Shown here: positions 28,950 to 49,776 of the stretch, piece by piece
Layout of the letters: each line of letters opens with the position of its first letter
Position numbering within the stretch: the stretch's first letter is position 1
NCBI GenBank assembly: GCA_965277715.1
Contig: OZ255836.1
Span: forward strand, 1,792,001 to 1,856,000
Length of the DNA: 64,000 nt
Source of the DNA: Gammaproteobacteria bacterium
GTDB taxonomy: Bacteria > Pseudomonadota > Gammaproteobacteria > JBCCGL01
Direction of reading: 5' to 3'
Notes under the pieces: generated by a model
Seen by the model: only the letters and a program-made list of their open reading frames with translations
The model's database searches: none
What the model was told of the DNA's origin: nothing
Position numbers and translations under genes: made by a program

Positions 28950-29995
28950 TATTCGGGTTCCAATACACGCAGGCGCTGGTTGACTTGTACCAGGTCAAAG
29001 CCACTGGCGTGGACGTTCGATAAATCCAGTGCGCGGTGATAAAAGTCGGCAGCGGCGGCGAATTTACCGAGGTGATCCAGGCTTACGGCGAGGTTGTAGG
29101 CAATATCCGGGTTTTCCTGATCCTGGCTAAACGCGGCAAAAAAATATTGCTGTGCCTCCGCCCAGCGTTGTTGTCGGCTGAGTAGGTTGCCCAGTGCGTA
29201 GTTGAGTGGTGCGGCGTCTGGTGCCTGCTGCAATAACACGCGCAAGTCTGAGATATAGCGTGCGGTATCGCCCTGTTGTGTCAGTGTATTAAACCCGGCC
29301 AATGCTGTGTAATCGCGTGGGTTGCGCAGTAACAGGCGGTGATAAATATCGATAGCGCCCTGTGGGTGGGTGTTTCTCTGGTGGAGTGCCGCTTGTCCCA
29401 GCAGAGCATCGCGGTGCTGGGGTGCACGCTGCAATGCCTGTTTGTATAAGTTTTGTGCCACATCAAAGTGGTTGTCCTGGTATGCCGTATAAGCCTCGTA
29501 TACCAGCGTATCCACAGTGCGCTGCTCTTTGTTATGGGTGATATGCAACGTCGCCGCTCGAGTATTCGTGGGTATATCGTGCGTGGTTGCAGCCGGTGTT
29601 GTGGGTGTTGCGCCGCCTGCCTGATACCAATCAATAGAAAAGGGTTTATTTCCCAGGAAGGGAACAGACGACGCAGATGCCACTTTAACCGCCTGGCCCG
29701 TTTGCTGTTGCCTGGATTGTCGATCTGGCCATTGTCCGGGTTGAAACCCGCCGGGCACAGGCAGTGAGAAGTCCGTGGATGGCAACAACACATCCGGCAG
29801 TGTCTCTGTCGGTGATAACAGCACGATTGCCGATGCGCGGGTATGGCTAAGTTGTTGTTGCAATGTCCTGCTGCGTTCCTCAACGGCGTAATAGCCCGCC
29901 CCGGCACAACCGCCACTGAGTAGTACGGCACACAGCACCCTGATCAGCGGGATACGCCAGGTTAATGGTTTTTGTAATGCCGTGTTGATAAGCAC
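28949..29995 (-). CDS. TPR protein (MshN-like)
   Basis: N-terminal TM and C-terminal TPRs (WAEAQQYFF.A, YNLAVSLDHLG). Confidence 0.75.
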   Translation of the reverse strand: MLINTALQKPLTWRIPLIRVLCAVLLSGGCAGAGYYAVEERSRTLQQQLSHTRASAIVLLSPTETLPDVLLPSTDFSLPVPGGFQPGQWPDRQSRQQQTGQAVKVASASSVPFLGNKPFSIDWYQAGGATPTTPAATTHDIPTNTRAATLHITHNKEQRTVDTLVYEAYTAYQDNHFDVAQNLYKQALQRAPQHRDALLGQAALHQRNTHPQGAIDIYHRLLLRNPRDYTALAGFNTLTQQGDTARYISDLRVLLQQAPDAAPLNYALGNLLSRQQRWAEAQQYFFAAFSQDQENPDIAYNLAVSLDHLGKFAAAADFYHRALDLSNVHASGFDLVQVNQRLRVLEPE

Positions 29996-29996
29996 G

Positions 29997-31652
29997 TTAA
30001 CTGTTCTCCGAGGCCTTAAAATATGGCTTAAACGTTTTCAAATCACTATCGAGGCTGGCGTTATCCACGACTGTGGGGCGCAGAAACACCAGCAGTTCGG
30101 TTTTCACTACTTCATCCTGTTGATAGGAAAACACCTTGCCAATGATCGGCAGGCTGGATAAACCGGGCACACCGCTGCTGCGCTTGTCGATTTTGTCTTG
30201 CATCAGCCCGCCGATAATCGCCACCTGGCCGCTGTTGACGCGCAGTAGTGATTCCATTTCACGCACCTGTATCTCGGGTATGCGGTTGACCACGCCCTCT
30301 TCGGCGAGATCCGGGTTGGGGTCATTAATAAACCCCAGGATGCGCGAGATACTGGGGCGCACATTGAGGATCACCTCGTGGTTTTCGCTGATAAACGGTG
30401 TCACATTCATCACAAACCCCACTGGCACGGTATGAATTTGGGTTTCACGCGTAGCGGGCTGGGTGATTTCACCGTCGGTATTGGTAATCGCCGGGTTGAC
30501 GGAAAGGGTGAAATACACACGGTTATCCACCACTTTCAGTACCGCTGTCTGGTTGTTCAGGGCGATGATTTTCGGGCTGGACAAAATTTGTACATCGCCG
30601 AATTGATTGAGTAGCTTGAGCGTTGACAGGACATTGCCAATGCCCGCTGTCGGGTCGCTGTAACTGAGCAGGAAGTTGGGTGCAACGGTGCCCGCCGCCG
30701 CCGCGCCACCGCCGGTAAACGATTGGGCGAGACTAAAGCCTCCGCTGTCATCACTGAGCACCTGCCAGTCGACACCTGCCTGGTAGCGGTCGCTCAGGGT
30801 GATTTCCACCACAGTCGCCTCGATCAGTGCCTGGCGGCGGGCGCTGGACATGATGCGGTCGATGAAGCCCTGTAATTCAGTGTGCTGGCGGCGGGTGGCG
30901 CGCACAGAAATCAACCCGGATTCGCGGTGCACAATCACCGCATTGGTGTCGTCCGCTGTATCCGCATTGCCGGGTGTACCGAGCATCTGTGCGATATTGT
31001 TTACCAGCGAATCCCAGAACAGATTGCTGGAACTATTGTGTATCTGGGTTTGCGAGTTATTAGAGCCGCTACCGTTCGTTGCGCCGTCGATATCGACACT
31101 AATCGAACCGATTTGCGTGGCCAGATCGACCCGGCTGGTGGCGGTGCGGGACATGTTCAGGTAATCGACCGCGTAGGTTTGCAGGTAGGGTTGATCGTCT
31201 GAAATAATCAGGTGATTGTCACTCACTTGATAGCGAATCGGTGCTTGCAGGGTAATCCGGTCGAGGATTTTTATCAGGGTTTGATCGATGGCGTTGAGCG
31301 TAATCATCGCCTCGGTATCGCCAATAATGTCGATATTCAGTGCCGCGTCCCGCGCCAGTGCAAATAGTAGTTCGCGCAGGGGTACGCGGTTGACGACCAC
31401 TGTGTACGTCTCCTGCTGTGTTTGTGGTTGTGGCGCTGGCAGATAGGGTGATGTGGTTAATACGTCTGGTATTGGTGTGTCTGGTGGCGCTGTATTGGTG
31501 GGGTGGTTTGATAGCTGTGCGCTACCGGCGGGTGTATCGGTACTGATATGCCCCCCGGATAATTGAATGGGGTTGTTACGGGCACAAGCTGAGAGGCCAA
31601 TGGCTGTGATCAGCAGTATTGTGCCGATAGAACAGACTTTCCGTGTAATCAT
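29997..31652 (-). CDS. Secretin, MshL-type lipoprotein
   Basis: Lipobox LSAC, Y.VDYLN, LIEATVVE..L..GVDW, LSSPKI..LNNQ.A, IGGL and KTELLVFLRP. Confidence 0.92.
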   Translation of the reverse strand: MITRKVCSIGTILLITAIGLSACARNNPIQLSGGHISTDTPAGSAQLSNHPTNTAPPDTPIPDVLTTSPYLPAPQPQTQQETYTVVVNRVPLRELLFALARDAALNIDIIGDTEAMITLNAIDQTLIKILDRITLQAPIRYQVSDNHLIISDDQPYLQTYAVDYLNMSRTATSRVDLATQIGSISVDIDGATNGSGSNNSQTQIHNSSSNLFWDSLVNNIAQMLGTPGNADTADDTNAVIVHRESGLISVRATRRQHTELQGFIDRIMSSARRQALIEATVVEITLSDRYQAGVDWQVLSDDSGGFSLAQSFTGGGAAAAGTVAPNFLLSYSDPTAGIGNVLSTLKLLNQFGDVQILSSPKIIALNNQTAVLKVVDNRVYFTLSVNPAITNTDGEITQPATRETQIHTVPVGFVMNVTPFISENHEVILNVRPSISRILGFINDPNPDLAEEGVVNRIPEIQVREMESLLRVNSGQVAIIGGLMQDKIDKRSSGVPGLSSLPIIGKVFSYQQDEVVKTELLVFLRPTVVDNASLDSDLKTFKPYFKASENS

Positions 31653-33433: not shown

Positions 33434-34048
33434 ATGAAATTGCGTTATTCCCCTACGTCGCCCTATGTGCGTAAAGTCTCTATCACCGCTATTGAGTTGG
33501 GCCTTGCCGGGCAGCTCGAACACATCGATACCAATCCCTGGGACGCCAATTCGGATATTGTTACCGATAACCCGCTGGGCCGTGTGCCTGCACTAAGCAC
33601 CGATGCGGGTGAGTGTCTGTACGACAGTGTGGTGATATGTGAGTACCTCGATTCGCTGTCTACGGCGCAGACTTTGTTTCCTGCGGATGGGTCACGTTGG
33701 GTAGTATTGCGCCAGCATGCGTTGATGAACGGTGTGTTGGATGCGGGGATTAATGCATTTATTGAGCGGATGCGGCGGCCAGATAATCTGCAGTGGGGAG
33801 AGTGGGTGGATTTTCAGTTGGCGGCGGTTGTGCGTGCGTTGGCGGTGATGGCGGGGGAGGTGGCTGGCTTCAATGGGCAGCCATTGAATATTGCGCATAT
33901 TACCGCAGGGGCGGCGCTGGGTTATCTGGATTTTCGTTTTGCTGATGATGTTGACTGGCGTGCCATGCATCCAGAATTGGCTGATTGGTATGCGGGGTTT
34001 TCGCAGCGTGAGTCTATGCAGGTGACGGTGCCAAGAATGCCGCAGTGA
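33434..34048 (+). CDS. Glutathione S-transferase family protein
   Basis: SPTSPYVRKV, NPLGRVPAL, LYDSVVICEYL and LGYLDFR. Confidence 0.92.
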   Translation: MKLRYSPTSPYVRKVSITAIELGLAGQLEHIDTNPWDANSDIVTDNPLGRVPALSTDAGECLYDSVVICEYLDSLSTAQTLFPADGSRWVVLRQHALMNGVLDAGINAFIERMRRPDNLQWGEWVDFQLAAVVRALAVMAGEVAGFNGQPLNIAHITAGAALGYLDFRFADDVDWRAMHPELADWYAGFSQRESMQVTVPRMPQ

Positions 34049-34191
34049 TCATTTGGTTTTTTATACTAATACATCCCCAGTTTTAAATTGATTAATATAT
34101 AAGGCTACTTAGGTAAGTAGCCAATATATCAGAGGCACAATCTGATTGTTGATTGTATGGAGGCTTACCTTGATGCATTGCCTGCCTGTTG

Positions 34192-35184
34192 TTAGCGGCC
34201 TACTGGAGATAGGTCTACATTGCCCCCAGTAAGAATGATGCCCACCCGCTTTCCGGAAAATATAGTGGGGTTGGCAAAGATTGCCGCCAGCGCAACGGCG
34301 GAAGAAGGTTCTACGATAATTTTCATGCGTTGCCAAATCAAACCCGTGGCCTCGATAATTTGCTGTTCGCTCACGCGTAAAATATCGGTGAGGTGTCGGT
34401 GGATAATGGGGAATGTCAGCGAACCGAGGGAGGTTTTCAGCCCGTCTGCGATGGTGTTGGGGGCATCTTCTTCGATAATATAACCCGCCTTAAATGATCG
34501 GTAGGCGTCGTCCGCATTGTGGGGTTCGGCGGCATAGACGGTGATGTTTTGCCTGGCCGCCGCCGCGCTGATGGCACAACCGCTGATTAATCCACCCCCG
34601 CCCACTGGCGCGACGATAATTTCCAGTTCATCGATTTCTGTCAATAACTCCAGTGCGCAGGTTGCCTGCCCGGCAATGACATCGGTGTTGTTGTAGGGGT
34701 GTACAAAGTGTGCACCACACTTTTCAGTGATGGCGTTGAGTGTGGCTTCACGTGCCGCATTGCTGGCGGCGCAGGTAACAATTTCCCCACCGTAATGGCG
34801 CACAGCATCTTGCTTAACCTGGGGGGCATTTTCCGGCATTACCACGGTAGCGGAGATTCCCCGGTTGGCGGCGGCACAACAAAGTGCGGCACCATGATTG
34901 CCCGATGAGTGCGTTGCAACGCCATTGGCCGCGTCCGTATCGGGCAGTGCAAATACAGCGTTGTGGGCACCACGCGCTTTAAAGGCACCGGTTTTCTGGA
35001 AATTTTCACATTTGAAAAATAATTGTGCACCGGTGATTTTATCAAAGGTTGTACTGGTCAGTACCGGGGTGTTGTGTACCCATGGTCGGATGCGTGTGTG
35101 TGCGGCGTGCACATCGTCAATGGTGGGTGGTGTGGTTATTGTGGTCGAGGGTGGCTGTGTAGCCTGGTTTGCATTGCTGGACAT
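34192..35184 (-). CDS. PLP-dependent serine racemase / threonine dehydratase family
   Basis: KCENFQKTGAFKARGA, HSSGNHG, PVGGGGL, VEPSSA and TGGNVD. Confidence 0.92.
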   Translation of the reverse strand: MSSNANQATQPPSTTITTPPTIDDVHAAHTRIRPWVHNTPVLTSTTFDKITGAQLFFKCENFQKTGAFKARGAHNAVFALPDTDAANGVATHSSGNHGAALCCAAANRGISATVVMPENAPQVKQDAVRHYGGEIVTCAASNAAREATLNAITEKCGAHFVHPYNNTDVIAGQATCALELLTEIDELEIIVAPVGGGGLISGCAISAAAARQNITVYAAEPHNADDAYRSFKAGYIIEEDAPNTIADGLKTSLGSLTFPIIHRHLTDILRVSEQQIIEATGLIWQRMKIIVEPSSAVALAAIFANPTIFSGKRVGIILTGGNVDLSPVGR

Positions 35185-35201
35185 ACATTGTTTTCCGCTT
35201 A

Positions 35202-38200
35202 TTACAATGGGTATTGTAATAAAACGCGGGTGTTGGCGTTAACGTTTTGTTGTCCCGTTACTTTGCCGTTTGGCCAGATAACTTTGATGTCGACAGCGCT
35301 TGCATCACCTAAGCCAAAGTGTTGTTCTTTGGGGTGGACTGACATATAGCCGGTGGTGCTTTGTACTTCACGGCTCATTTGCCTGCCAGAGGCGGTGACC
35401 AGTATCTTTGCACCGACAGCATCGCGGTTGATGCCTTTTTGACTATTGCCCACGAGCCTGACTTTTAACCAGTTGCGCTGGTGTCGTTGTGTGTTGTTTC
35501 GGTATAAGGTGGCGTGGTCGTGGTAATTGTTGAGAACAATATCCAGGTCGCCGTCGTTGTCCAGATCCAGATAGGCGGCGCTGCGGGAGTTTCCCAGTAG
35601 ATCCGCGCCACTTTGTTGGGAGCGGTTTTGTAGTTTGCCGCCTTCGTTGACAAAAAATACATTGCTCTCTTTGGTCGATACGGGAATCACAATGCCCTGC
35701 CGGGCGTTATTGTCCGGGTCTGTGTAATAGGGGTTTTCGCTGCTGTAGAGGTTGTACTCATTCATGCCATTGAGCACATATAAGTCGTCATCGCCATCGT
35801 TATCAAAGTCGAAGAAGTCGGCATCCCATGACCAGCCCGTCGATGAATAGCCGCGTTCGACCAGTTCGCTTAATTGGTAATGGGCGCCGCCCTCTGCCAA
35901 TGGGCGGGATAAAAACAGGTCGTTGGCCTCCACCACGCGCATATCTGATAGCTTGTCCGGGTTGAATTTCATGGGGGTTGTCGCGTTGGGCTGCACATAG
36001 GTTTCATCCTTGTTCATCACGACGATATTGGCGATGTAGATGTCGGGAAATGTATCCCGGTTTAGGTCGGTGCTGCTAATGCTCATGGTGTACGACGGTT
36101 TGCGGGTGCCAATTTTTGCCGCAATGTCCTCGAATTTTCCGTTGCCTTTATTGAGGTAGTAGCTGTTCACGCCAAAATCGTTGCCAACAATCAGGTCTTG
36201 CAGGGTGTCGTTGTTTAAGTCGGTATGCGTTACCGCTTGCGTCCAGCCGGTGTTATTGAACGATTCATCGATGGCTACCTCACGGAATGTAAATCCGCCC
36301 AGGTTTTTGAACAGTTTATTGGGCAAGCCGTTGTCGTTATATCTTTTTAAGGTGGGTAAAACGCCGTGCAGGTAATCGCCAAAATAGGTGATATAGATAT
36401 CCAGCAGGCCATCGTTGTCGTAATCCAATAAGGTGGCTGGCCCACCCACCAGACCTTTCCCACCCAATTTGGCCTGCGCAGTGACATCTTCAAATGTGGC
36501 ATTGCCCCGGTTTTTGAACACCCGGTGGTTATCATCAACGTAGGTGATAACAATATCCTGTAAGCCATCGTTGTCCAGGTCGGCGATCAGCGGTTGCCTG
36601 GGTTCTCCCGGTTGTTGATCTTCCGGGCGGCGCCATTGCAGGCCGGATGTGGCACTGACATCGATAAAGCGTTCGCCGCGCTGGTTTAGGTACAGGTGGT
36701 TGCCCAGGCCACTGAGCAACAGGATATCCACAAATCCGTCAGCATTAATATCTTCAGCGGCGACGCCTGCGCCACCAAATGCAGGGGGGATGGTGATAAT
36801 CCCGGTGTTTTCATCTTTCTTTAAATAGCTGCGCAATTGGCGGCTCAACCAATCGGATGACCGGTGTAAATGCGTGATGCCATAGGGCTGTGTAATATCG
36901 GTAAAATAACCGGATTGCGCCGCATCGGTCACTGTGGGTGTCGATGTGATGGCTGCCTGCTGGGCATCTACGGTGGGTTGCGCATTATTCCCGGTTATGC
37001 GCTCGTTGATGCGCGCAATCGCCAGAGCTACGTGGTCGGCTTTAATCCGGTTATCGCCCTGTTCTTTTCCCACCTGGCCCACCAGTCGTAATAAAAGTAC
37101 ACCAAATTGTGCAATATTCTCGGCGAGTAATTCGGCAGCAAACGGGTCTGGCGCGAGCTGACCATTAAATTCCGGGTGCTGAATGGCGAACTGGAGATAG
37201 CGCCAGTGGTTACCGCTGTCCCGAAATGCATCCATATCGTAGGATTCAATGGGCACCTGCCTGGTAGGGGGCAGGCGTGGGAAAAAGATAACATCCTCGT
37301 ACTGATTGACCTGGTGCGGAATAAAATGCTGAATAAAAGCGCTGACATCGCTTTCTCTGATCAGGTTGTGTTTATGGTGGTTGGCGACAATTTCCGCCCC
37401 TAGATAAAGATCATTGGCAAAGACGATAACCGCTTCTTGAAAAAGACCGATAAAACGCTGGCTTTCCTGTTGCGTTTCCGGCCAGCGGTTTTTGCTTAGA
37501 AAGACTTGCAGGTTGCGAATAAACAGTTGGTTACTGACCTGGTTGTATTGCTTATAAGAGGCGACTTTCTGGTCGATAATACTGTGCAAAACGGTAAGCC
37601 CTGCTTCTCCCGTATTATTTGATGCAGATACGGGTGTCGGGACTGTCTTATCGGTTTGTTGTGGCGTCTCGATGCTGAGCAGTTGTTGCCAGGTTTCGCG
37701 TAGCAGGGTTTCGCTAATCTGGTATTGGTTGTTGCGGCGGGCGCGTTGGTCGGCAATCTTGAGAACGGCCAATGCAAACAAATCCAGCGTTTGCTTTAGT
37801 TGATCGATTGTGTCACGAGATAGCGGCAGGGTGTGTTTGTTTCCAGTCAATATATATTCCTGCTGTACCGCTAACAGCGCCCGTAGAGAATAGGCAATAC
37901 TAGCGTATTGGCGCAGGTCGTTTTTGTGGATAGTAACCTCAATACGGTCGTTGAAATGCAGTGCCCAATGCTGGTTGGTGTCAGGGGTGTAGCTGAATAT
38001 TTTTGCGGTGGCGGCGTCTAGTTGTGCTGGATTTACCTGTTTGTATTTCAGTGCCAGTGCGCTGGCCGAGGCTTGTTTCCACAGGTGTTGAATAAAAGCG
38101 CGCGATAGGTCGTTTTTTGCAAACCGGGCCGGTGATGACAACGGCGTGCCAAACATAAAATCCTCCAGGCGTGAGGCGGTGGCATAGCACTTGGGTTCGT

Positions 38201-38339
38201 TATCGCCTTCCAGATTTTTGATTGCACTAGTGATTTCCTGCAGGCTTTGGGTGTCTGCGAGGGATGCCAGTGGCGCTATTAACGCAATTAAAAATATCGT
38301 GTGTAGGCAGGTTTTTATTGAGCACACGGGCTTATGCAT
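35202..38339 (-). CDS. Secreted protein: four histone-fold-like repeats + FG-GAP (CRTAC1-like) beta-propeller + ASPIC/UnbV domain
   Basis: Signal-like IFLIALIAPLASLA; multiple DxDxDGxxD blades; GWSWDADFFDFDNDGDDD; C-terminal NRDAVGAKI...HFGLG..VIWPNG. Four 44-aa helical repeats align with the archaeal histone fold. The track start is 38387. Confidence 0.85.
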   Translation of the reverse strand: MHKPVCSIKTCLHTIFLIALIAPLASLADTQSLQEITSAIKNLEGDNEPKCYATASRLEDFMFGTPLSSPARFAKNDLSRAFIQHLWKQASASALALKYKQVNPAQLDAATAKIFSYTPDTNQHWALHFNDRIEVTIHKNDLRQYASIAYSLRALLAVQQEYILTGNKHTLPLSRDTIDQLKQTLDLFALAVLKIADQRARRNNQYQISETLLRETWQQLLSIETPQQTDKTVPTPVSASNNTGEAGLTVLHSIIDQKVASYKQYNQVSNQLFIRNLQVFLSKNRWPETQQESQRFIGLFQEAVIVFANDLYLGAEIVANHHKHNLIRESDVSAFIQHFIPHQVNQYEDVIFFPRLPPTRQVPIESYDMDAFRDSGNHWRYLQFAIQHPEFNGQLAPDPFAAELLAENIAQFGVLLLRLVGQVGKEQGDNRIKADHVALAIARINERITGNNAQPTVDAQQAAITSTPTVTDAAQSGYFTDITQPYGITHLHRSSDWLSRQLRSYLKKDENTGIITIPPAFGGAGVAAEDINADGFVDILLLSGLGNHLYLNQRGERFIDVSATSGLQWRRPEDQQPGEPRQPLIADLDNDGLQDIVITYVDDNHRVFKNRGNATFEDVTAQAKLGGKGLVGGPATLLDYDNDGLLDIYITYFGDYLHGVLPTLKRYNDNGLPNKLFKNLGGFTFREVAIDESFNNTGWTQAVTHTDLNNDTLQDLIVGNDFGVNSYYLNKGNGKFEDIAAKIGTRKPSYTMSISSTDLNRDTFPDIYIANIVVMNKDETYVQPNATTPMKFNPDKLSDMRVVEANDLFLSRPLAEGGAHYQLSELVERGYSSTGWSWDADFFDFDNDGDDDLYVLNGMNEYNLYSSENPYYTDPDNNARQGIVIPVSTKESNVFFVNEGGKLQNRSQQSGADLLGNSRSAAYLDLDNDGDLDIVLNNYHDHATLYRNNTQRHQRNWLKVRLVGNSQKGINRDAVGAKILVTASGRQMSREVQSTTGYMSVHPKEQHFGLGDASAVDIKVIWPNGKVTGQQNVNANTRVLLQYPL

Positions 38340-38416
38340 TATCAATAGTGTCGATGGAAAAATGACCCACAAAAAAGCGTGGGTCATTGAATAAATCGAG
38401 TGTAAAGCGACAGAAG

Positions 38417-39811
38417 TCAGGGCTTTGCGCTGGCTCCCAGCAATTGGTTAACTTTTTCACTGAGGTTTTTCAAAAGGGTTGTGTTTTGCTGGATTTGCGC
38501 GTCTTTTTGGGTGAGTTTTGCTTCCAGCGCGATTATCTTCTGCTCTTTTAGTGCCAGCTTTTGATTTAACGCCTGAATTGAGGCCAGGGCTATACCGTCG
38601 CTATCCACTGTCGATATACGCCTTTTATCTGAACCCAGGCCAAACAGGTCAAAAAAGTCCTCTGCCATCGGGCCAATATGAGAAGCACCTGTGCCATCAT
38701 CTTTAAAGCGCCATTTCAAGATAGGCATATTCACCACAGCATCCAGAATGGAAAGCGGGTTAATTTCAGAAAAGTTTTCTTTCAGGGTACGGGATGATGA
38801 AGGGTTAAACGCAACTGCAGTGACCTCGCCCCGGATTAAAGCATCACCTGTTGGTGAGAGTGAAAACTCTACATTGCCATCAGAAAAGTCACCGGCCAGA
38901 AAACCACCAGCGGCAGTGAGTAATAGCCCTGTTACTCCCCCAGCACCAAATGTTTCACCTGCAGCACTCAATAATAGAGAACCTGGAGCTATACCATCTG
39001 ATTGGCCTATAAGCCACGTGTTACTGGTGTTGGTGTTATTCAGCAGAACCCTGCTGTTACTGTTAGTGCGTAGCTCCAGCAATGTGTCACCGGACCCCGC
39101 TACCCCGGTGGTTGTACTGGCGGTTTCCTCGACCAATATCCTTGCACCGCCATCGGTTGAGAACAGGTGTAAATCTGTCGTTGGGGTGTTGGTACCGAGG
39201 CCTATATCACCGGTATTTTCAATAACTAAGCTATTGTTGCCTGCGCCTGGCTGAATCCGAAAGGGCAGTAGACTGCTATTGGTCACATCGCGAATAAAAA
39301 AATTGCTTTCATTGCTACCTAAATCCCACGCCTGTGGGGTAAAGCCACTGCTACCGTTTTGTTCCAGGCGCACTGTCGGTGTATTGCCATCGACAACATG
39401 TACCTGGACAATCGCACTGCTGGTGCCAACACCAATATTACCGCTGCTGTTGACGCGCAAACTATCGGCAGGGGCGCCAGCATCGACGCGAAAAACCTGG
39501 CTATTCGCAGTAGAATCTTCAACAGCGAAGTAATTACTCCCACCATTGGCTGTATCGTTAAAAACAAAACGCCAGTCATTTGAGGGGAAGCTGGAACTAC
39601 TACTGGTATCGTCAAAATGAATACGCAGGTTGTTTTCTTTTAAGCGAAATGTATCAAAACCAAAATTTTCCCCATTGACGCAATCATTGCCCGTGCAGAG
39701 GCTGAATGTAATGATGGTGTCATCAAGATGCACAATATCGGCGTGTGCACTGGGTGTTATGGTAAGTAATATCAGCCACATCAGTGGGTTTTTTACTGTC
39801 TTTGTAAACAT
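38417..39811 (-). CDS. Secreted fibre-like protein with C-terminal peptidase S74 (intramolecular chaperone) domain
   Basis: Signal peptide (..SAHA|D), CTGNDCVNGENFGFDTFRLKENNLRI, GNIGVGT/GDIGLGT repeats, SSSRTLKEN...HIGPMAEDF..FGLG and a C-terminal coiled coil. Confidence 0.85.
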   Translation of the reverse strand: MFTKTVKNPLMWLILLTITPSAHADIVHLDDTIITFSLCTGNDCVNGENFGFDTFRLKENNLRIHFDDTSSSSSFPSNDWRFVFNDTANGGSNYFAVEDSTANSQVFRVDAGAPADSLRVNSSGNIGVGTSSAIVQVHVVDGNTPTVRLEQNGSSGFTPQAWDLGSNESNFFIRDVTNSSLLPFRIQPGAGNNSLVIENTGDIGLGTNTPTTDLHLFSTDGGARILVEETASTTTGVAGSGDTLLELRTNSNSRVLLNNTNTSNTWLIGQSDGIAPGSLLLSAAGETFGAGGVTGLLLTAAGGFLAGDFSDGNVEFSLSPTGDALIRGEVTAVAFNPSSSRTLKENFSEINPLSILDAVVNMPILKWRFKDDGTGASHIGPMAEDFFDLFGLGSDKRRISTVDSDGIALASIQALNQKLALKEQKIIALEAKLTQKDAQIQQNTTLLKNLSEKVNQLLGASAKP

Positions 39812-39903
39812 AGTTATATATCTCTAAGCATTGGGGTACCAAGGTAACGCTATACGGCGCAGAAGCCTCTGCTGGTATTGACCATTGGTTTTGGCTGGAC
39901 GCA

Positions 39904-40311
39904 TCACTGGTTGGACGCATCAGGCACTGCATTGCTGACGAAGTGGAACCTACCGCTTTCCACGACACCGACAGGCTCACCACGTGCAGCGCGTTGTGCT
40001 TCGCTTCTACCATCATTGAGAGGCTGTTTGACGGTGTGTGCAATTTCCACGCCGGGTAGCGGTGCACTGATTTGGTAAGTGTAGGTGCCCTCGGTTAGCG
40101 GTTCATCCACAAATATCAGGAGTGAGTCGGTCTGGAGGTAAAACCCGTTAGGGCCGGTGATAGTCAATTGCCGAACGTCAGGGTGATCGGTCTCGAACTG
40201 GATGCTGTAGTCATCTGTGGTGACAATGGTTTCGGCGTAAACCTGGGCTGGCGTTATCAGGGTGCAAGCCAACAGGGTTAAAAAGGAAGCAGCGCTAACA
40301 TGTATATTCAT
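39904..40311 (-). CDS. Small secreted beta-rich protein
   Basis: Signal peptide (..AQVYA|E), LTITGPNG, EGTYTYQI and ESGRF; co-oriented with its neighbours. Confidence 0.7.
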   Translation of the reverse strand: MNIHVSAASFLTLLACTLITPAQVYAETIVTTDDYSIQFETDHPDVRQLTITGPNGFYLQTDSLLIFVDEPLTEGTYTYQISAPLPGVEIAHTVKQPLNDGRSEAQRAARGEPVGVVESGRFHFVSNAVPDASNQ

Positions 40312-40458
40312 GGTGATAACCTACCTAATATTTAAGTTGACTTAGTTGAGTATAGCTAGAAAAACAAGCTGTACACTGAATGTGTAAATATTTTTGTTAC
40401 GCATTTTGATACGGTTCAAAGTGACGCTTATACAAATGTTGAGGGTAATAAGTTATTG

Positions 40459-42384
40459 CTACTTTTCAAAACGTTGTAGAAATAACCCCACCATTATGCC
40501 TTTGAGTAAGACAGTGCCCGCCTGGTTAGTCAGTAACGGATTGATGTCAGTCAGTGTATGTTTGAATACAGTTTCCATGTACGGTAGATCTAAATATTCC
40601 TGGGCCAGGTCTGATTGCTGTAATTGCTTTAGGCTGTCTCGTATTGCACTGCTGCTATGGCGTATTCGCATAATAATATCGGCGGCCTGTTTACCTTTCT
40701 GCTTATTCCATAAAAAACTATCGGGCATCAGGCCAGCCATGCCCCTTCGGATCAGCATTTTTTCCTGGCCACGCTGTGTGTATTGGTTCTCTGGAATACC
40801 AAAACAATACTCAATGATACGTTTGTCTGCGGTGGGGTCGCGAATCTCCACATCGTAGTGGGCGCCGAGTTCTGACCAAAAGGCGCCTGCGGCGTTGCCA
40901 GGGGCGAGCATGATGGATCGATACTCAGGATTGTGCTGCGATAGCAGCATCCGCTCTCCGTCAATCAACCGGTCTTTAATGCCTAAGGTAATCGCTACTT
41001 TTGGGTTTATTGCAGAGAACGCCATCCAGTTTTTATAGCCGCCGGTGATTAGTCGGTATTGCCGTGCCCAGGATAAGGGTAAAAGCGGGGAAATAACTTG
41101 GTTTTTCAATGTGGATATCCATGATTGTTTATTACATTTTTTCCATTTTATAACTTCCATTCGATAGGTTTCCCAGTTTCCCGTCTGGCGTAAACGTTTA
41201 AGCAGCTGCGCTCTGTTTCCGTTCCAGGACACAGTGGCATTGCCAAACTGTCCGGTCAATAGGGTGCCAATCCCCGCTTCTTTAAGCTTCTGTAAAATGG
41301 CAAGTATCCAGTACATATTGACCGCTGCATGCTCTGGCTCTTCTCGGATATGCAGTGTGGATGCCAGGCCAGCCAATGGAGTGGTTTCTGCCGCATCGAC
41401 ATAGTGAATATCCACTCCTTTCAGGTAGGGTTCCAACATGTGGATAAAAGCCTTTTCATCACCAAATTGGTGCGGATAAACACCGCCACGGGTGTCATAG
41501 AGCGGAATAGCGCTGTAGGCGGCTATTCTTTCGCTTGATTGTATGCCTTCATGGTTGGCCAGGGCTGTCACCGAGCTGGAGTCCAGGCCACCACTCAACG
41601 TGGTTGCCACGGGTTTTTTGCTGTGCAACCTGCACCTGACAGCCTCTGAGTAAATATCTCTAAATGCTTCTACATATTCTTCATCGGTATTAAAACGCAC
41701 ATCGGGTGCATCCATTGGGTTCCAGTACCTGCTTAGCTGGTGGCTTGTACGGGAAACGTTTAAACAATGGGCGGGCGGCAGGCGAGAAATATTTTGGTAG
41801 CATGTTTGGCCGTTATCGTCATCAACGTGGATCGTCACCAATAGGCGAGATAACATGTCCCTATTAGGGGCGATTGAAACAGCGGGTATTTTTAACAGTC
41901 CTTTTATCGATGATGAAAAACAGAAAAAATCGGCCCCCAGGTAATAGTAGAGACCTGTATTGCCAAAGTGATCGCGTGCAATAAACAGTGTTTGTTTATG
42001 TTTATCCCATACGGCGAATACCCAGTCACCCAAAAGGTACAATGGGCACCTGTCGCCCCATTTTAAATAAGCCTGAATCACTAAATAGCCATCAGTGACT
42101 GACACTCTATCCTGGGTTGGAATGGCCAGCTGCTGAAAAAGTGCGCTACGGTTATCCAGTCGAAAATGACCAATTAGCGTAAGCTGTTCAGTTTTATACG
42201 GGAGTCGTTCGTTGACTGATTCCGGTGTGTTATGGCGCAGACAGAAACCCATGCGCATATTGCCATCATGTGAAAAACCACTACCTTCTTTTCCCCAATA
42301 CGAGAGTGAGTGTTCTACCGCTTTCAACGGATCTGGAGAAGGATATTGACGCGCCCTTTGGAAATACCCAAATAGTGCTGACAT
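40459..42384 (-). CDS. Asparagine-synthetase-like lasso peptide cyclase (C protein)
   Basis: AsnB fold (RLDNR, LGDW.FA.WD, ARD.FG, LSGGLDSS, LLTGQ.G, RDPT.D.R..E.C...P) but begins MSALFG with no catalytic Cys1; lies directly downstream of a lasso precursor. Confidence 0.85.
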   Translation of the reverse strand: MSALFGYFQRARQYPSPDPLKAVEHSLSYWGKEGSGFSHDGNMRMGFCLRHNTPESVNERLPYKTEQLTLIGHFRLDNRSALFQQLAIPTQDRVSVTDGYLVIQAYLKWGDRCPLYLLGDWVFAVWDKHKQTLFIARDHFGNTGLYYYLGADFFCFSSSIKGLLKIPAVSIAPNRDMLSRLLVTIHVDDDNGQTCYQNISRLPPAHCLNVSRTSHQLSRYWNPMDAPDVRFNTDEEYVEAFRDIYSEAVRCRLHSKKPVATTLSGGLDSSSVTALANHEGIQSSERIAAYSAIPLYDTRGGVYPHQFGDEKAFIHMLEPYLKGVDIHYVDAAETTPLAGLASTLHIREEPEHAAVNMYWILAILQKLKEAGIGTLLTGQFGNATVSWNGNRAQLLKRLRQTGNWETYRMEVIKWKKCNKQSWISTLKNQVISPLLPLSWARQYRLITGGYKNWMAFSAINPKVAITLGIKDRLIDGERMLLSQHNPEYRSIMLAPGNAAGAFWSELGAHYDVEIRDPTADKRIIEYCFGIPENQYTQRGQEKMLIRRGMAGLMPDSFLWNKQKGKQAADIIMRIRHSSSAIRDSLKQLQQSDLAQEYLDLPYMETVFKHTLTDINPLLTNQAGTVLLKGIMVGLFLQRFEK

Positions 42385-42467
42385 CTACAAGACAAATAAT
42401 ACGTATAGCACCAAGCCTGCGCTCAACTTTAGTGCATCAGGCAAAGTACAAATCAGCTGAGTACCTT

Positions 42468-42492
42468 GCCCGTTCGTTGTTATTGAACGGGC
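42468..42492 (-). promoter_or_regulatory. Stem-loop between the lasso precursor and the cyclase
   Basis: GCCCGTTC-N9-GAACGGGC, 16 nt after the precursor stop; no U-tract. Confidence 0.5.
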
Positions 42493-42508
42493 CAACAAAA
42501 TTGCGGAA

Positions 42509-42673
42509 TTAGCTGAGAAAACCACCATCCAGCCCACCTCCTGGCGTCGCTAAAGTGATTTGGTTTATATTGCCTAAATCCCTCAGTAAAGGGGAGTGGT
42601 ATTCTTTTTTTGTGGTTTTTTCAGCGCTGGAATCGGTTGAGGGGGTATTTTCATCAATATCTTGCTTCATCAT
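42509..42673 (-). CDS. Lasso peptide precursor (A), 54 aa, not in the ORF track
   Basis: MMKQDIDENTPSTDSSAEKTTKKEYHSPLLRDLGNINQITL|ATPGGGLDGGFLS*. It has the YxxPxL..G.....T leader, Thr at -2 and Asp at core position 8; SD AAGAGG upstream. Confidence 0.88.
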   Translation of the reverse strand: MMKQDIDENTPSTDSSAEKTTKKEYHSPLLRDLGNINQITLATPGGGLDGGFLS

Positions 42674-42952
42674 AGTGCCTCTTACATAGGGGGTTTAGTC
42701 GTTTAGTAATCTTTCAATGTAAGTAAATAAACAAAGCTTATTATCTACACACAGAGTGGTTGCAATTAAGGATAGTATATTCTTTGAAAATAGTGCTCTA
42801 GCTCTAGCTTTATTGGGTACTTTTAGTGCCAATATGGAAGCTGCTGAAGCATACCAGAAGCAGTGTCGTTTTAAATATTTTTTGCTCGCTTTGGCAATGT
42901 GCCGCATTAATCGGTTCTAAGTTCTGCGTCCGGTTGAGTGAGTGTGGTTCCA

Positions 42953-45900
42953 TCATTCATTTAGCCAAGCCGAAGGTTTGCGCCACACCCGGACCATAAA
43001 AATGAGCAGTAAACCTAGCAACAGGTTGTCGATCACGGTGTAACTGCCACCACCACCCGCTTGGGTGACGGCAGGTTGGTTGGCTGCAATGGTTACGCTG
43101 GCGCCGGTAATGGTGGTGGTACTGGCACCATCATTAACCAGCGCACTCAGGGTCAGCGTGCCGGTCGTTGTACCTGCCGTTACCTGGGCGGTGTAGCGGC
43201 CATTACCGTTATCGGTTGTGGCTGTTATTGTGGTGTCTGCCACGCCGGTACCACTAATGGTTACTGTGGCGCCCAGCACCGGGTTGCTGCCGGCATCCAC
43301 CAGGTTCAAGGTTACTTGCGTGCTGCTGCTGCCGTCGGCGGGCAGTGATGTGATGCTGGAGGATAGCGTGCTTAAAGCCACATTGAGTACCCGGCTGGTA
43401 ACGCCACCTGGGTCGGTAATAACATTATTCGCCTCACCATCGGCATCGTTGGGGCCGCCATCGGTGATCGTTAGGCGTATGCAGCTATCGCCCTGCGTGA
43501 GCGCTGTCCGCCAACGGGTATCGGCCTGCCCAGGGCACAGGCCATTGGCCAGGCGCGCTGCAGATACCACGGTGTCTGTCATGCCGTTGGCATTGACGGT
43601 ACTTTGGTCAAAATCGACCCAATTGACCCGCGCTGGAAAGTTTGGCAGGCGGGTAGCCAGGTATTTGCGGTAAATGGGGTTAACCGGGATAGCGTTTGAC
43701 AGCGGAATGACGACATTGACCTGCTGACCCGTAGTGGGTAGGTTCAGGACTTCAAAATCGACGATGGCGGTTGGGTGCGATAGGCTGTCGGCGGGTAGTA
43801 TCACTGTGCCGCTGCTATCCACTGAGCCTTCGGTGACTGTTGCGTCAAAACGATTTGCCAGGCCGACAATTGCCGAGGCGGCAATTGTGCCCAGGCGCAG
43901 TGTAAGGCCGGGTTCGGTGGTGATAATTTCGCTGGTGTTAACTGCGTTGACGACGGGCAGAAAGCGGGCGTTGTTATTCTGTACATCAATAAAGCCGGGA
44001 ATCCGGTCACCATCCGGGTCCGCCAGGCCAGCCATGATATCCGGTATGCCATCATTATTGCTATCGGCAGTGGGGTTGTTTGAAAATAAGCTACTAGGCT
44101 CGACTATCAGCGCGCTACGACCACTGGCGCTATTGGTGCCATCGCTGACCTGTACCCGCAATTCGTAGAGACCGGCGGTAGGTACCGCGAGGGTGAAACT
44201 ATCGGTAGTGCCTGGTGGCACGGTGACGGCAGTGGTCGCGCTCCAGTCATAGCTTATGGTGTCTCCACTATTGCCATCGGTTACCACGGCAGTCAATGTC
44301 AGTATGCTGCTACCGGCAATAACATTGGAGACGGTCTGGCCATTCTGACTAATGCGAATAGTAACGGTGGGGGCGATATTGCCGGAGACTACCTGGATCG
44401 TCTGGGATACCTCGCCGCTGGCGATGACCCGGTCGGTTGTAGGGTTGATCGCGCTTATATTTTGCGCAAAGGGGGCCGCACCCGTATTCAGGCTAACTGA
44501 CAAGCTGCCGGGGTTGGCACCGGCGGTAAAAGAGGTGGTGCCGCTAATCGACCCGGCTGCCAGTGTGATGGTGCCGTTGCTGGTGGCGCTGCCGCTGGTA
44601 TCGGTACTGACCGTAAACGGTACGGTGATAGCGGTGCCGGTGTCGACGGGGTTACCGTTGAGCTGAGCGTTGATGTCGATGGTAGAACCTGTGCCAACTG
44701 TCGGGTTGGTGGCGGAAACAGATACCAGCGGCACGATATTGACTGTTTGTTGTGCAGCACCACCAGCGGGCCAGTTTCCGGTACTGTCGAGGGCCAGCCA
44801 CCAGAGGTCATTGGCGCCGGGGTAGAGCAATAGATCACCACTGCTGTTAACGAGGACTGATGTGCAAACGCTGGCAAAATTGGCGGGTAGAATGCTGCCC
44901 GTGCAGGCACCGCGGCGGTAGTAGGCAGTGCGCGAGGTGTTGTTGCTTGCGGTGACGCCGTGCGGGGCGGCAGTGACAATCGCGACTGAGGCCAGTGTCA
45001 GTGGTGTGGTGAGTGTGATAACGGGGCGGGTACTGCCAATAAAATCGACGGACCCCAGGTCTAACGGGTCGACGCCCAGTCGTACATCCACTACATCAGG
45101 TATGCCATTGGCATTGGCGTCGGTGCTGTTGTTGACACTGTTAGTGGTGCCGCTGAGGTAGCGTTCGACAGCATCTGTGATGCCGTCATTGTCTGTGTCT
45201 GTGGTGGTTGCAGTAGACGCTGTATCCAGGTTGTCAGACAGGCCATCGCCGTCGGTGTCTTCGCCCGCGTTGCCCAGTACCACCTCGATATTGGTGGTGA
45301 TCGAGGCCTGGTTGCCGTTACCAGTGGTATCTTCGGCCAGATTGGCGGCGATACCGATACTGGCTGTACCGGCGCTACCCACAGTAATGTTCACGGTATA
45401 ACTGTTATTGCTACCGGAAAAATTATTCAGCGTGGCATTACTGACACTAATATCGCTTGCATCAAACCCAACGACACCTTCACTGAAGGTAATCGTGGCC
45501 ATCACTGTACCAGACGCGATAATACGTGCGCTGTTGGTGGCGATTGATACGCTGGGACGGGTAATGTCGTAGTTGATGCTGCGTTGAGTGGCCGCTGTGT
45601 TGCCATTACCGGCAACATCCTGAGCGACAGCGGCGGCGACATCGAGTGTAACCGTGCCCTCGGTCGTGGGGGTAATGTCTGCTGTGTAGGTCGTGTTACT
45701 GCCCGCAAAGTTAGCGACTGTGGCGTTGCCCGCATTGATGTCACTCAGCGCAAACCCGGTGACGTTTTCGGTAAAGGTAAACGTGGCGGTAAATGTGGTA
45801 TTGACGTCACTACTGGGGGTGGTAATGGTCACGCCGGGATTGGTAATGTCGTAGTTCATGCTGCGTTGAGTGGCCGCTGTGTTGCCATTACCGGCAACAT

Positions 45901-49591: not shown

Positions 49592-49776
49592 TGTGTTTTC
49601 TCTACCAGTACCGTTATTGGCCTGATTTACCGGGTTTCCTTTGCTCGCAATAGCGGGGGAATCCCTGTGGTTCATCAAAATCATAGTATAAAATTCCACA
49701 ATTGCAGTGGGTATTCGCTATATTTGTGACGGAAATGCAGTGATAATAGTCACTTAACAGAACACCCAGTCCACAT

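What the first reader, a model, noticed from the sequence alone, without database searches (positions are those of the whole stretch)
37020..38141. Four histone-fold-like repeats in a secreted beta-propeller protein
Seen: the N-terminal ~460 aa of the 35202-38387 protein contain four 44-aa helical segments (aa 83-126, 189-232, 308-351, 413-456). They align without gaps to the L1-a2-L2-a3 part of archaeal histone HMfB, recalled as VSDDARITLAKILEEMGRDIASEAIKLARHAGRKTIKAEDIELA. Repeat 4 is PDPFAAELLAENIAQFGVLLLRLVGQVGKEQGDNRIKADHVALA, repeat 3 includes DLYLGAEIVANHHKHNLIRESDV, repeat 2 is LSRDTIDQLKQTLDLFALAVLKIADQRARRNNQYQISE, and repeat 1 is LSSPARF...KQASASA...KQVNPAQLDAA. The linkers after repeats 1 and 3 look similar, suggesting two fused doublets (a single-chain tetramer). 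Inference: the DNA-contacting R-(K)-T loop is not conserved and a signal peptide is present, so the fold may be an extracytoplasmic scaffold or ligand-binding module. As I recall, structure-prediction surveys have proposed a 'beta-propeller histone' class, so the architecture may already be catalogued, but I know of no assigned function or link to this gene neighbourhood.
Basis: partly seen in the sequence, partly recalled or inferred. Interest (0 to 1): 0.85.

Follow-up and report, generated by a model that had tools for sequence, protein, structure and literature searches.

The report
Exported propeller protein with four histone folds
An exported bacterial CRTAC1-type beta-propeller protein carries a well-conserved N-terminal block that is predicted to consist of four histone folds arranged as two fused pairs, so a fold known for packing DNA seems to be reused here outside the cytoplasm as a protein scaffold.

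Summary
The four 44-aa segments sit at the stated coordinates. They coincide with L1-a2-L2-a3 of four predicted histone folds (HF) in aa 68-469 of the 1061-aa ORF 35202-38387 (-).

- **Duplication.** The two halves are homologous duplicates (hhalign 90.8%, E 1.2e-6).
- **Sequence evidence.** This is only marginal. There is no Pfam histone hit. The best profile-vs-PDB E is 0.0034, though 31 of 33 hits are histone-fold proteins.
- **Packing.** The doublets are predicted to pack into one body (0.86 against a best control of 0.18). They do so through a1/L1-L2 faces, not a nucleosome-type four-helix bundle.
- **Against DNA binding.** The module is mildly acidic and sits behind a signal peptide.
- **Lone cysteine.** One near-invariant Cys lies at the doublet interface.
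- **Distribution.** At least 201 species carry the protein. In most loci, an exported thioredoxin/DsbD_N gene follows it.

No paper describing this architecture was found. Function remains inferred.

The parts
35202..38387 (-). Whole gene, 1061 aa from the first ATG. The likely true start is M17 at 38339.
38256..38339 (-). Putative Sec signal peptide, aa 17-44, ending ASLA|D
   Evidence: Hydrophobicity profile; family heuristic 65 of 71. No SignalP was available.
36981..38255 (-). Whole four-histone-fold module, aa 45-469
   Evidence: AF2 pLDDT 90.4, pTM 0.89; coordinates checked
37677..38255 (-). Doublet 1, aa 45-237: N-terminal helix, HF1, beta insert plus helix, HF2
38004..38186 (-). Histone fold 1, aa 68-128 (a1 68-78, a2 85-112, a3 120-128)
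   Evidence: Weak profile hits to H2B chains on this stretch, E 0.013-1.6.
38187..38189 (-). Codon of Cys67, the only cysteine of the mature protein
   Evidence: Cys positions 22, 27, 67. The column holds Cys in 73 of 75 aligned sequences. It lies in the predicted doublet-doublet interface.
37902..37997 (-). Insert 1, aa 131-162: three short strands and a helix
   Evidence: aligns with insert 2
37677..37892 (-). Histone fold 2, aa 166-237
37614..37676 (-). Low-confidence linker between the doublets, aa 238-258
   Evidence: pLDDT 50-62; not conserved
36981..37613 (-). Doublet 2, aa 259-469: helix, HF3, beta insert plus helix, HF4
37323..37532 (-). Histone fold 3, aa 286-355
   Evidence: Best sequence hit 4wzs_B at E 0.0034, and NF-YB chains at E 0.11-0.4.
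37221..37316 (-). Insert 2, aa 358-389, carrying the most conserved acidic motif of the module (NEYED ... ESYDMDAFRD)
36981..37211 (-). Histone fold 4, aa 393-469
   Evidence: Weak Cdc6 lid hits on its L2-a3.
35205..36920 (-). CRTAC1-type FG-GAP/VCBS beta-propeller with C-terminal ASPIC/UnbV domain, aa 490-1061
   Evidence: Pfam FG-GAP_3 E 3e-37, UnbV_ASPIC E 5.7e-18. Foldseek top hit is murine CRTAC1 9etn_A, E 1.4e-24, TMt 0.72.
38417..39811 (-). Upstream neighbour 29 nt away: exported fibre-like protein with a Peptidase_S74 chaperone domain. It is a recurrent neighbour of this family.

Best explanation
The gene encodes an exported CRTAC1-family protein. Its C-terminal half is a calcium-type FG-GAP beta-propeller with an ASPIC/UnbV domain. 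Its N-terminal 425 residues form a rigid block of four histone folds. The block arose by duplication of a doublet consisting of a helix, a histone fold, a small beta insert with a helix, and a second histone fold. Within each doublet, the two folds pair in the classical handshake, as in solved single-chain histone pseudodimers. The two doublets then pack against each other through the surfaces that bind DNA in true histones (a1 and the L1-L2 ends). The block is therefore a protein scaffold, not a DNA binder (inferred). It is held in a fixed position relative to the propeller (inferred from pTM). The conserved interface between the doublets includes the only cysteine of the mature protein. I take that interface to be the functional heart of the module. 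In most genomes it probably works together with the exported thioredoxin/DsbD_N protein encoded next to it (inferred from gene order only).
For: - **Fold.** The AF2 model of aa 40-500 from a 75-sequence alignment has pLDDT 90.4 and pTM 0.89. It shows four a1-L1-a2-L2-a3 units with one-residue bridges in every L1 and L2.
- **Foldseek on PDB.** The top rows are all single-chain histone dimers, with probability 1.00 and TMt 0.51-0.65.
- **Duplication.**
- **Sequence hints.** With the 16-sequence profile, 31 of 33 PDB sequences at E<=10 are histone-fold proteins. With the 78-sequence profile, 4 of 8 are. Language-model neighbours carry PF00808, with scores 0.79-0.88, which count as leads only.
- **One body.** The doublet 1 with doublet 2 complex scores 0.86 against a best control of 0.18. 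That mark was reached by 58 of 80 solved complexes and 2 of 110 mismatched pairs. The runs agree in at least 86% of contacts and the partner pLDDT is at least 83. These are two halves of one chain, so a pass is the expected outcome.
- **Interface.** The contacts map to a1/L1/L2 faces. Interface residues are more conserved than the rest, with mean identity 0.69 against 0.52 and Mann-Whitney p 4.9e-6.
- **Not DNA-like.** The module's net charge is -5, with family median -7 and median pI 5.8. Signal peptides are indicated.
- **Full length.** The model has pLDDT 88.9 and pTM 0.88. The propeller matches CRTAC1.
- **Family.** 601 proteins at E<=1e-3, 295 representatives and 201 genome loci. All 80 kept loci also encode the propeller part.
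- **Neighbour.** The thioredoxin/DsbD_N gene is present in 45 of 62 loci with at least 2.5 kb downstream, and is immediately downstream on the same strand in 44.
Against: - All structural evidence is predicted; no coordinates could be inspected.
- No histone Pfam family is matched at any listed threshold. PF00808 finds nothing on the homologous genes of two genomes at E<=1.
- Single-sequence phmmer against PDB gave 0 hits.
- No Foldseek PDB hit reached E<=1e-3.
- Sequence E values (0.0034 at best) are not significant on their own, and they became weaker with the larger alignment.
- The window lacks the thioredoxin/DsbD_N partner within its 64 kb, so that link may not apply here.
- The scaffold role and the role of Cys67 are inferences with no direct test.
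Confidence: 0.68

Rival explanations
1. The interface cleft between the doublets is a thiol-dependent active or sensing site. The lone, near-invariant Cys67 and the invariant acidic, His and Arg residues of insert 2 and HF4 act on a substrate. The adjacent exported thioredoxin/DsbD_N protein keeps the cysteine reduced, as periplasmic reductases do for single-cysteine enzymes.
For: - Cys67 is the only cysteine of the mature protein and is conserved in 73 of 75 sequences. In the 19 homologues printed, no cysteine lies beyond residue 107 of about 1040-1120.
- Cys67 is among the residues predicted to touch doublet 2.
- Many invariant polar residues cluster in the same interface.
- The neighbour has a signal-peptide-like start, a CHWC thioredoxin motif and a DsbD_N domain. 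It is present in 45 of 62 loci.
- The precedent of reductases protecting single cysteines is recalled. Only the search listing and abstract openings of PMC4624244 and PMC3322552 were seen.
Against: - No catalytic geometry could be checked without coordinates.
- No enzyme family matches the module.
- The partner gene is absent from this window.
- Conserved interface residues can be purely structural.
- 2 of 75 sequences lack the cysteine.
Confidence: 0.18
2. It is an extracellular histone-like protein that binds extracellular DNA or another polyanion in a biofilm matrix, with the propeller anchoring it to the cell surface or to polysaccharide.
For: - Histone folds are classically DNA binders.
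- The protein is exported.
- Its neighbours are surface proteins: an S74 fibre, a giant DUF7933/Big_12/Invasin_D3 protein, and MSHA-type pilus genes nearby.
- HF1 alone is basic in this protein (charge +3, pI 9.7).
Against: - The module's net charge is -5 here and -7 at the family median.
- The L2 loops are poorly conserved.
- The a1 and L1-L2 faces are predicted to be buried between the doublets.
Confidence: 0.07
3. The units are not histone-fold homologues. They would be a convergent helix-strand-helix repeat related to AAA+ lid domains, or a generic helical repeat that structure predictors draw as histone-like.
For: - The only Pfam and NCBIfam hints are the Cdc6 lid and orc1/cdc6 (E 0.05-0.08).
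- Cdc6 also appears.
- Histone sequence hits are not statistically significant.
Against: - AAA+ lid matches cover about 75 residues. Pseudodimer matches cover about 142 residues and nearly the whole target chain.
- 31 of 33 weak sequence hits are histone-fold proteins on two different repeats.
- The known kinship of the two folds (recalled) makes lid hits expected for a true histone fold.
Confidence: 0.07

Closest known systems
Bacterial double-histone-fold proteins (DUF1931 type: T. thermophilus 1wwi, A. aeolicus Aq_328 1r4v)
   Different: Those are stand-alone proteins of about 150 aa without a signal peptide. Here there are two doublets with extra helices and beta inserts, fused to a propeller and exported. 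No DUF1931 row appeared in the Pfam scan at E<=10. Identity in the superpositions is 8-11%.
Histone doublets of Methanopyrus kandleri (1f1e) and Marseilleviridae (7n8n, 9cvt), and engineered H2B-H2A chimeras
   Different: Those are basic proteins that wrap DNA. A 555-aa Marseillevirus multi-histone protein aligns over 525 columns but with TMq 0.25 and rmsd 23.8, so the arrangement of the doublets is not shared.
Double histone folds inside non-chromatin multidomain proteins (SPT3 of SAGA, the histone domain of SOS)
   Different: Those are eukaryotic, cytosolic or nuclear, with one doublet per protein.
CRTAC1 / ASPIC-UnbV family (murine CRTAC1, 9etn)
   Same: The C-terminal 570 aa have FG-GAP repeats plus an UnbV_ASPIC domain. 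Foldseek gives E 1.4e-24, TMt 0.72 and 20% identity. Databases name the homologues 'CRTAC1 family protein'.
   Different: The matched CRTAC1 chain has 551 residues and aligns only with the C-terminal half of the model. The N-terminal 425-aa block has no Pfam or NCBIfam model.
The 17 prokaryotic histone categories of Schwab et al. 2024 (PMC11390915)
   Same: That survey also reports histone-fold proteins that seem to have lost DNA binding and gained other parts (the transmembrane and DUF1931 categories; passages).
   Different: None of the categories named in the passages I read involves a propeller or a signal peptide. Its supplementary tables could not be seen.

Membership tests
Histone fold (structural superfamily) | Unit of short helix, loop, long central helix (about 28 aa), loop, short helix | tested here: met
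   Four such units in the AF2 model, with a2 of 28, 28, 32 and 28 residues and pLDDT mostly above 90. They were reproduced in the full-length model. This is a prediction only.
Histone fold (structural superfamily) | Two units paired head-to-tail in a handshake | tested here: met
Histone fold (structural superfamily) | Significant sequence or profile match to a histone-fold family | tested here: not met
   No PF00125 or PF00808 row even at E<=10. PF00808 finds nothing on the homologous genes in two genomes at E<=1. The best profile-vs-PDB E is 0.0034, or 0.068 with the larger alignment.
Histones proper (DNA-organising proteins) | Resides with the chromosome (no export signal) | tested here: not met
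   Signal-peptide-like N-terminus here and in 65 of 71 relatives. This is a heuristic; no SignalP or experiment was available.
Histones proper (DNA-organising proteins) | Basic protein with exposed a1 and L1-L2 DNA-contact faces | tested here: not met
   Net charge -5, family median -7, median pI 5.8. The a1 and L1/L2 faces are in the predicted doublet-doublet interface.
Histones proper (DNA-organising proteins) | Binds and compacts DNA | not testable with these tools
   Needs EMSA or similar.
Nucleosome-type histone tetramer | Dimers joined by a four-helix bundle of the a2 end and a3 | tested here: inconclusive
   The confident contacts involve the N-helices, a1 of HF1 and HF2, the L1/a2 start of HF1 and HF4, and L2/a3 of HF3. 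No residue of the a2 end or a3 of HF1 or HF2 is listed, but the tool states that unlisted residues are uncertain. The BFVD multi-histone hit does not superpose globally.
DUF1931-type bacterial double histone fold | Profile match to the family, and a stand-alone protein of about 150 aa | tested here: not met
   No such Pfam row at E<=10. The module is part of a protein of about 1040 aa in all 80 kept loci. The short database hits are mostly partial or on short contigs.
CRTAC1 family | FG-GAP/VCBS propeller followed by an ASPIC/UnbV domain | tested here: met
   FG-GAP_3 at 127 bits (cut-off 26.9) and UnbV_ASPIC at 65 bits (cut-off 23.4). 9etn_A at E 1.4e-24.

The most novel reading that the evidence does not exclude
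The four-histone-fold block is not a passive scaffold. It would be the first catalytic or redox-sensing unit built from histone folds. A cleft between the two pseudodimers would be lined by the lone invariant Cys67 and by invariant Asp, Glu, His and Arg residues. It would work outside the cytoplasm and be kept reduced by a dedicated exported thioredoxin/DsbD_N partner.
Probability: 0.12. Interest if true: 0.85.

Novelty: new variant of a known kind. Interest (0 to 1): 0.62.

Why it matters
Histone folds in bacteria have so far been described as small cytoplasmic singlets or doublets. Non-chromatin uses of the double histone fold are known mainly from eukaryotes (SOS, SPT3).

This case is an exported module of four histone folds. 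It is duplicated from a doublet, packed in a non-nucleosomal way, and fused to a CRTAC1 propeller. It was found in at least 201 species genomes, in several phyla among the 80 kept records. If confirmed, it would extend the known range of the fold to the cell envelope or exterior.

It would also give the large, functionally blank bacterial CRTAC1/UnbV family a defined and testable feature. The candidates for testing are the conserved interface, the single cysteine, and a recurrent redox neighbour. The 425-aa block has no Pfam or NCBIfam model and could be defined as a new domain family.

Tried and rejected
- **Single-sequence searches of the module.** Pfam and NCBIfam gave only sub-threshold Cdc6-lid, orc1/cdc6, HTH_Tnp_Tc5 and RAP80_UIM rows. 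phmmer against PDB gave 0 hits.
- **PF00808 over two genomes that carry a homologue.** There was no hit on the gene. Two weak hits elsewhere in G002 (E 0.4-0.6) were not followed. The control archaeal hits were not returned as loci, so I could not build a histone profile for hhalign.
- **Foldseek on PDB.** No row reached E<=1e-3.
- **BFVD.** One row reached E<=1e-3, but its global superposition is poor. It gives no support for a nucleosome-like arrangement of the four folds.
- **A 78-sequence profile.** This was expected to sharpen the PDB sequence hits. Instead it gave fewer and weaker ones, plus three UDP-glycosyltransferase rows that I take as chance.
- **Promoter and terminator scan of 33900-42800.** Counts were at or below the shuffle expectation (8 against 12.1, and 11 against 10.6), so no operon boundary could be read from it.
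- **Stand-alone form of the module.** The 'shorter' search gave 64 proteins. Most are marked partial or lie on short contigs, and a few lie on long contigs and may be split genes. I did not examine them further.
- **Expression.** No RNA holder was listed, and read laying was not used.
- **Binding to neighbours.** I considered and dropped a complex prediction of the module with the thioredoxin partner or the S74 fibre. The single job went to the doublet-doublet question.
- **Supplements not seen.** The supplementary tables of PMC10627809 and PMC11390915 list bacterial histone-fold proteins with additional domains and may bear on the novelty claim.
Full report
**What is there.** The minus-strand ORF 35202..38387 encodes 1061 aa. 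Pfam sees only the C-terminal half. It finds FG-GAP_3 (E 3e-37, six stretches), FG-GAP, and UnbV_ASPIC at aa 990-1055. The first 480 residues have no Pfam or NCBIfam family. At permissive thresholds the only rows are the Cdc6 lid (E 0.078, aa 429-456), orc1/cdc6 (E 0.052) and two unrelated short motifs. The likely start is M17, which gives a classical signal peptide ending ASLA|D. The 99%-identical database protein is 1045 aa.

**Family.** The N-terminal region alone retrieves 601 proteins at E<=1e-3, of which the best 120 were listed. It also retrieves 295 cluster representatives, 75 of them at E<=1e-30. Full-length members are about 1000-1120 aa, down to 23% identity, and all listed ones carry the propeller domains. 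Public names are 'CRTAC1 family protein', 'VCBS repeat-containing protein' or 'enediyne biosynthesis protein E4'. One protein (P0040) is called 'histone H3/H4' by JGI.

A scan of one genome per species found 201 loci that encode a relative, and 80 were kept. These are mostly marine Gammaproteobacteria. Others are Betaproteobacteria, Verrucomicrobiota, Acidobacteriota (Thermoanaerobaculia, Sulfidibacter), Aminicenantes and Hydrogenedentota, by record title. All 80 kept loci also encode the propeller half. Shorter database hits are mostly partial. I found no evidence for a free-standing module.

**Internal repeats.** I cut the 75-sequence alignment A2 into the four repeat regions and compared the pieces with hhalign. 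All 6 of 6 pairs aligned in register on a2-L2-a3, with probabilities 29-90% and E 1.5e-6 to 5.8e-4. Doublet 1 (aa 45-240) against doublet 2 (aa 258-475) aligned co-linearly over 138 columns. The alignment ran from a2 of the first fold, through the insert, to a3 of the second fold, at probability 90.8% and E 1.2e-6.

**Predicted structure.** AlphaFold2 on aa 40-500 with 75 sequences gave mean pLDDT 90.4 and pTM 0.89. The secondary structure reads as follows, in protein numbering:
- a long helix (aa 45-62);
- HF1 (a1 68-78, a2 85-112, a3 120-128);
- three short strands and a helix (131-162);
- HF2 (166-181, 191-218, 226-237);
- a low-confidence linker (238-258);
- a second long helix (259-282);
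- HF3 (286-297, 306-337, 345-355);
- strands and a helix (358-389);
- HF4 (393-403, 415-442, 450-469).

Every L1 and L2 contains a one-residue bridge, as expected where L1 of one fold runs beside L2 of its partner.

**Fold comparison.** Foldseek against PDB listed single-chain histone dimers at the top. These were H2A-H2B chimeras, HMk 1f1e, Melbournevirus doublets, SOS and Aq_328, with probability 1.00 and TMt 0.51-0.65. No row reached E<=1e-3; the best was 2.9e-3.

VIA-align on Foldseek's candidates gave the following for doublet 1:

|---|---|---|
| 1wwi | 11.1 | rmsd 3.0, 142 of 148 residues |
| 9cvt_C | 10.5 | |
| 6a7u | 10.4 | |
| 1f1e | 9.6 | |
| 1r4v | 9.4 | |

**Sequence-level evidence is weak but points the same way.** A profile of 16 N-terminal fragments (A3) against PDB sequences gave 33 distinct sequences at E<=10, and 31 are histone-fold proteins. 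H2B chains fall on repeat 1. On repeat 3 fall 4wzs_B (E 0.0034), NF-YB and HapC chains, and TAF12. The other two are a dynein light chain and Cdc6. That 4wzs_B is NC2-beta is my recollection of the entry name. A 78-sequence profile (A4) gave only 8 hits. Four are histone-fold proteins (best E 0.068), three are one glycosyltransferase and one is Cdc6. Language-model neighbours were archaeal clusters carrying PF00808, at scores of 0.79-0.88, which the tool calls leads only. PF00808 itself finds nothing on the homologous genes of two genomes at E<=1. The family therefore fails the sequence criterion for membership. It qualifies only by predicted structure.

**How the four folds sit together.** The pTM of 0.89 for 461 residues already implies a fixed arrangement. 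I then gave the two doublets as separate chains to the complex predictor. The score was 0.86 against a best control of 0.18. That mark was reached by 58 of 80 solved complexes and 2 of 110 mismatched pairs. The runs agree in at least 86% of contacts and the partner pLDDT is at least 83. These are halves of one polypeptide, so a pass is the expected result and may lean on learned likeness.

Mapping the confident contacts shows which parts are involved. From doublet 1:
- the first long helix;
- Cys67 and the start of a1 of HF1;
- the L1/a2 start of HF1 (P82-N92);
- a1 of HF2 (R169-L180).

From doublet 2:
- the second long helix;
- L2/a3 of HF3 (N341-S349);
- parts of insert 2 (V360-E364, S382-R389);
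- the L1/a2 start of HF4 (A412-A426, including the invariant D-P-F).

No residue from the a2 end or a3 of HF1 or HF2 is listed. The confidently predicted interface is therefore not the four-helix bundle of histone tetramers. The tool notes, however, that unlisted residues are merely uncertain. Interface residues are more conserved than the rest of the module. Mean column identity is 0.69 against 0.52, the share at 90% or more is 38% against 17%, and Mann-Whitney p is 4.9e-6. A 555-aa Marseillevirus multi-histone protein aligns over 525 columns (E 3.4e-5), but with TMq 0.25 and rmsd 23.8. That gives no support for a shared higher-order geometry.

**Whole protein.** The full mature chain (aa 45-1061, 65 sequences) gave pLDDT 88.9 and pTM 0.88 with the same N-terminal secondary structure. 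This suggests that the histone block is docked on the propeller rather than tethered loosely. I could not inspect that interface. The C-terminal half matches murine CRTAC1 (9etn_A, E 1.4e-24, TMt 0.72, 20% identity), and integrin alpha propellers follow.

**DNA binding or not.** The module has net charge -5 and pI 6.3 here. The family median is -7 with pI 5.8, and insert 2 is strongly acidic throughout the family. The L2 loops of HF1 and HF2 are not conserved. The a1 and L1-L2 faces are used for the internal interface. With the export signal, this argues against a chromatin-like role. An extracellular polyanion-binding role is not excluded, but I rate it low.

**A lone cysteine and a recurrent redox neighbour.** The mature protein has a single cysteine, Cys67, directly before a1 of HF1. 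The column holds Cys in 73 of 75 aligned sequences. In the 19 homologues printed, no cysteine lies beyond residue 107.

Clustering the ORFs of the 80 loci plus the window gave three recurrent neighbours.
- **An ~800-aa protein.** It occurs in 51 loci and lies immediately downstream on the same strand in 44. It is present in 45 of the 62 loci that have at least 2.5 kb downstream. It has a Thioredox_DsbH/DUF255 domain (E about 1e-49 to 1e-52), weak six-hairpin glycosidase-like matches and a C-terminal DsbD_N domain. It also has a signal-peptide-like start and a CHWC motif.
- **A Peptidase_S74 fibre-like protein.** It occurs in 39 loci plus the window, and in 25 of the 46 loci with at least 5 kb on both sides. 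tblastn gave 36 of 80.
- **A giant surface protein.** Homologues occur in 24 of 80 loci by tblastn.

The window has the S74 protein (38417-39811, 29 nt upstream) and the giant protein (42953-49699; DUF7933 x7, Big_12 x4, Invasin_D3). It has no thioredoxin/DsbD_N homologue anywhere in its 64 kb. The gene downstream here is a BhcB-like dehydratase, found next to the family in 1 of 80 loci. A single conserved cysteine in an exported protein, beside an exported reductase-like gene, recalls the periplasmic systems that protect single cysteines. That precedent is recalled. Of PMC4624244 and PMC3322552 I saw only the search listing and abstract openings.

**Literature.** Four full-text searches combined histone fold with propeller, FG-GAP, VCBS, ASPIC, CRTAC1 or bacterial terms. 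None found a paper on this architecture.
- In Schwab et al. 2024 (PMC11390915; passages only) the words propeller, FG-GAP, VCBS and signal peptide do not occur. The categories named in what I read do not include such a protein.
- The 2026 review of double histone folds (PMC13088155; passages) lists only the Thermus/Aquifex type for bacteria.
- Hocher et al. [quoted passage not shown]
- Histone-fold quadruplets are reported for eukaryotes and giant viruses (PMC13520046; passages).

**Verdict.** This is a new architectural variant of the double histone fold. It is duplicated to four folds, packed in a non-nucleosomal way, exported, and fused to a CRTAC1 propeller. Its function is unknown. My best reading is a rigid protein scaffold whose conserved inter-doublet interface, with its single cysteine, is the working part.

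**Habitat note.** Near-identical DNA is held by runs labelled sponge metagenome in three further studies, with word shares of 0.65-0.84.

Noticed in passing
window 38417-39811 (-): A 464-aa protein with a signal-peptide-like start, a Gly/Ser/Asn-rich fibre-like body, a Peptidase_S74 intramolecular chaperone domain (aa 339-388, E 1.3e-6) and a C-terminal coiled-coil-like tail. Homologues lie near the histone-fold CRTAC1 gene in about half of the loci (36 of 80 by tblastn; 25 of 46 loci with 5 kb on both sides).
   Followed up: partly
L016:10117-12579 (+) and 50 other loci; absent from the window: An ~800-aa exported protein with a DUF255 thioredoxin domain (CHWC motif), a six-hairpin-like middle part and a DsbD_N domain. 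It lies directly downstream of the gene in 44 loci. It is a conserved two-gene unit that the window lacks.
   Followed up: partly
window 42953-49699 (-): A 2248-aa protein with seven DUF7933 domains, four Big_12 domains and an Invasin_D3 domain, probably a giant surface adhesin. Homologues occur in 24 of 80 loci of the family.
   Followed up: partly
window 40459-42384 (-): An asparagine-synthase-like protein whose best NCBIfam row is the lasso peptide isopeptide bond-forming cyclase (375 bits, below the cut-off of 525). No precursor or protease gene was looked for.
   Followed up: no
window 34192-35184 (-): A PLP-dependent enzyme closest to beta-hydroxyaspartate dehydratase BhcB (499 bits, below the cut-off of 550). 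It starts 17 nt after the CRTAC1 gene but is not a conserved neighbour (1 of 80 loci).
   Followed up: partly
window 27201-31652 (-): A pilus or secretion cluster: a T2SSE ATPase with an MshEN domain, a TPR protein and a secretin. It looks like an MSHA-type pilus locus.
   Followed up: no
window 49777-51924 (+): A 715-aa radical SAM protein (Radical_SAM_N, Radical_SAM, DUF3362).
   Followed up: no
window 35202-39811: Near-identical DNA is held by seven public runs from four studies. Four of these runs, from three studies, are labelled sponge metagenome (word shares 0.65-0.84).
   Followed up: no
window 38339-38387: The ORF's first ATG adds 16 residues before a better start at M17. The 99%-identical database protein begins at the equivalent of M17.
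   Followed up: partly
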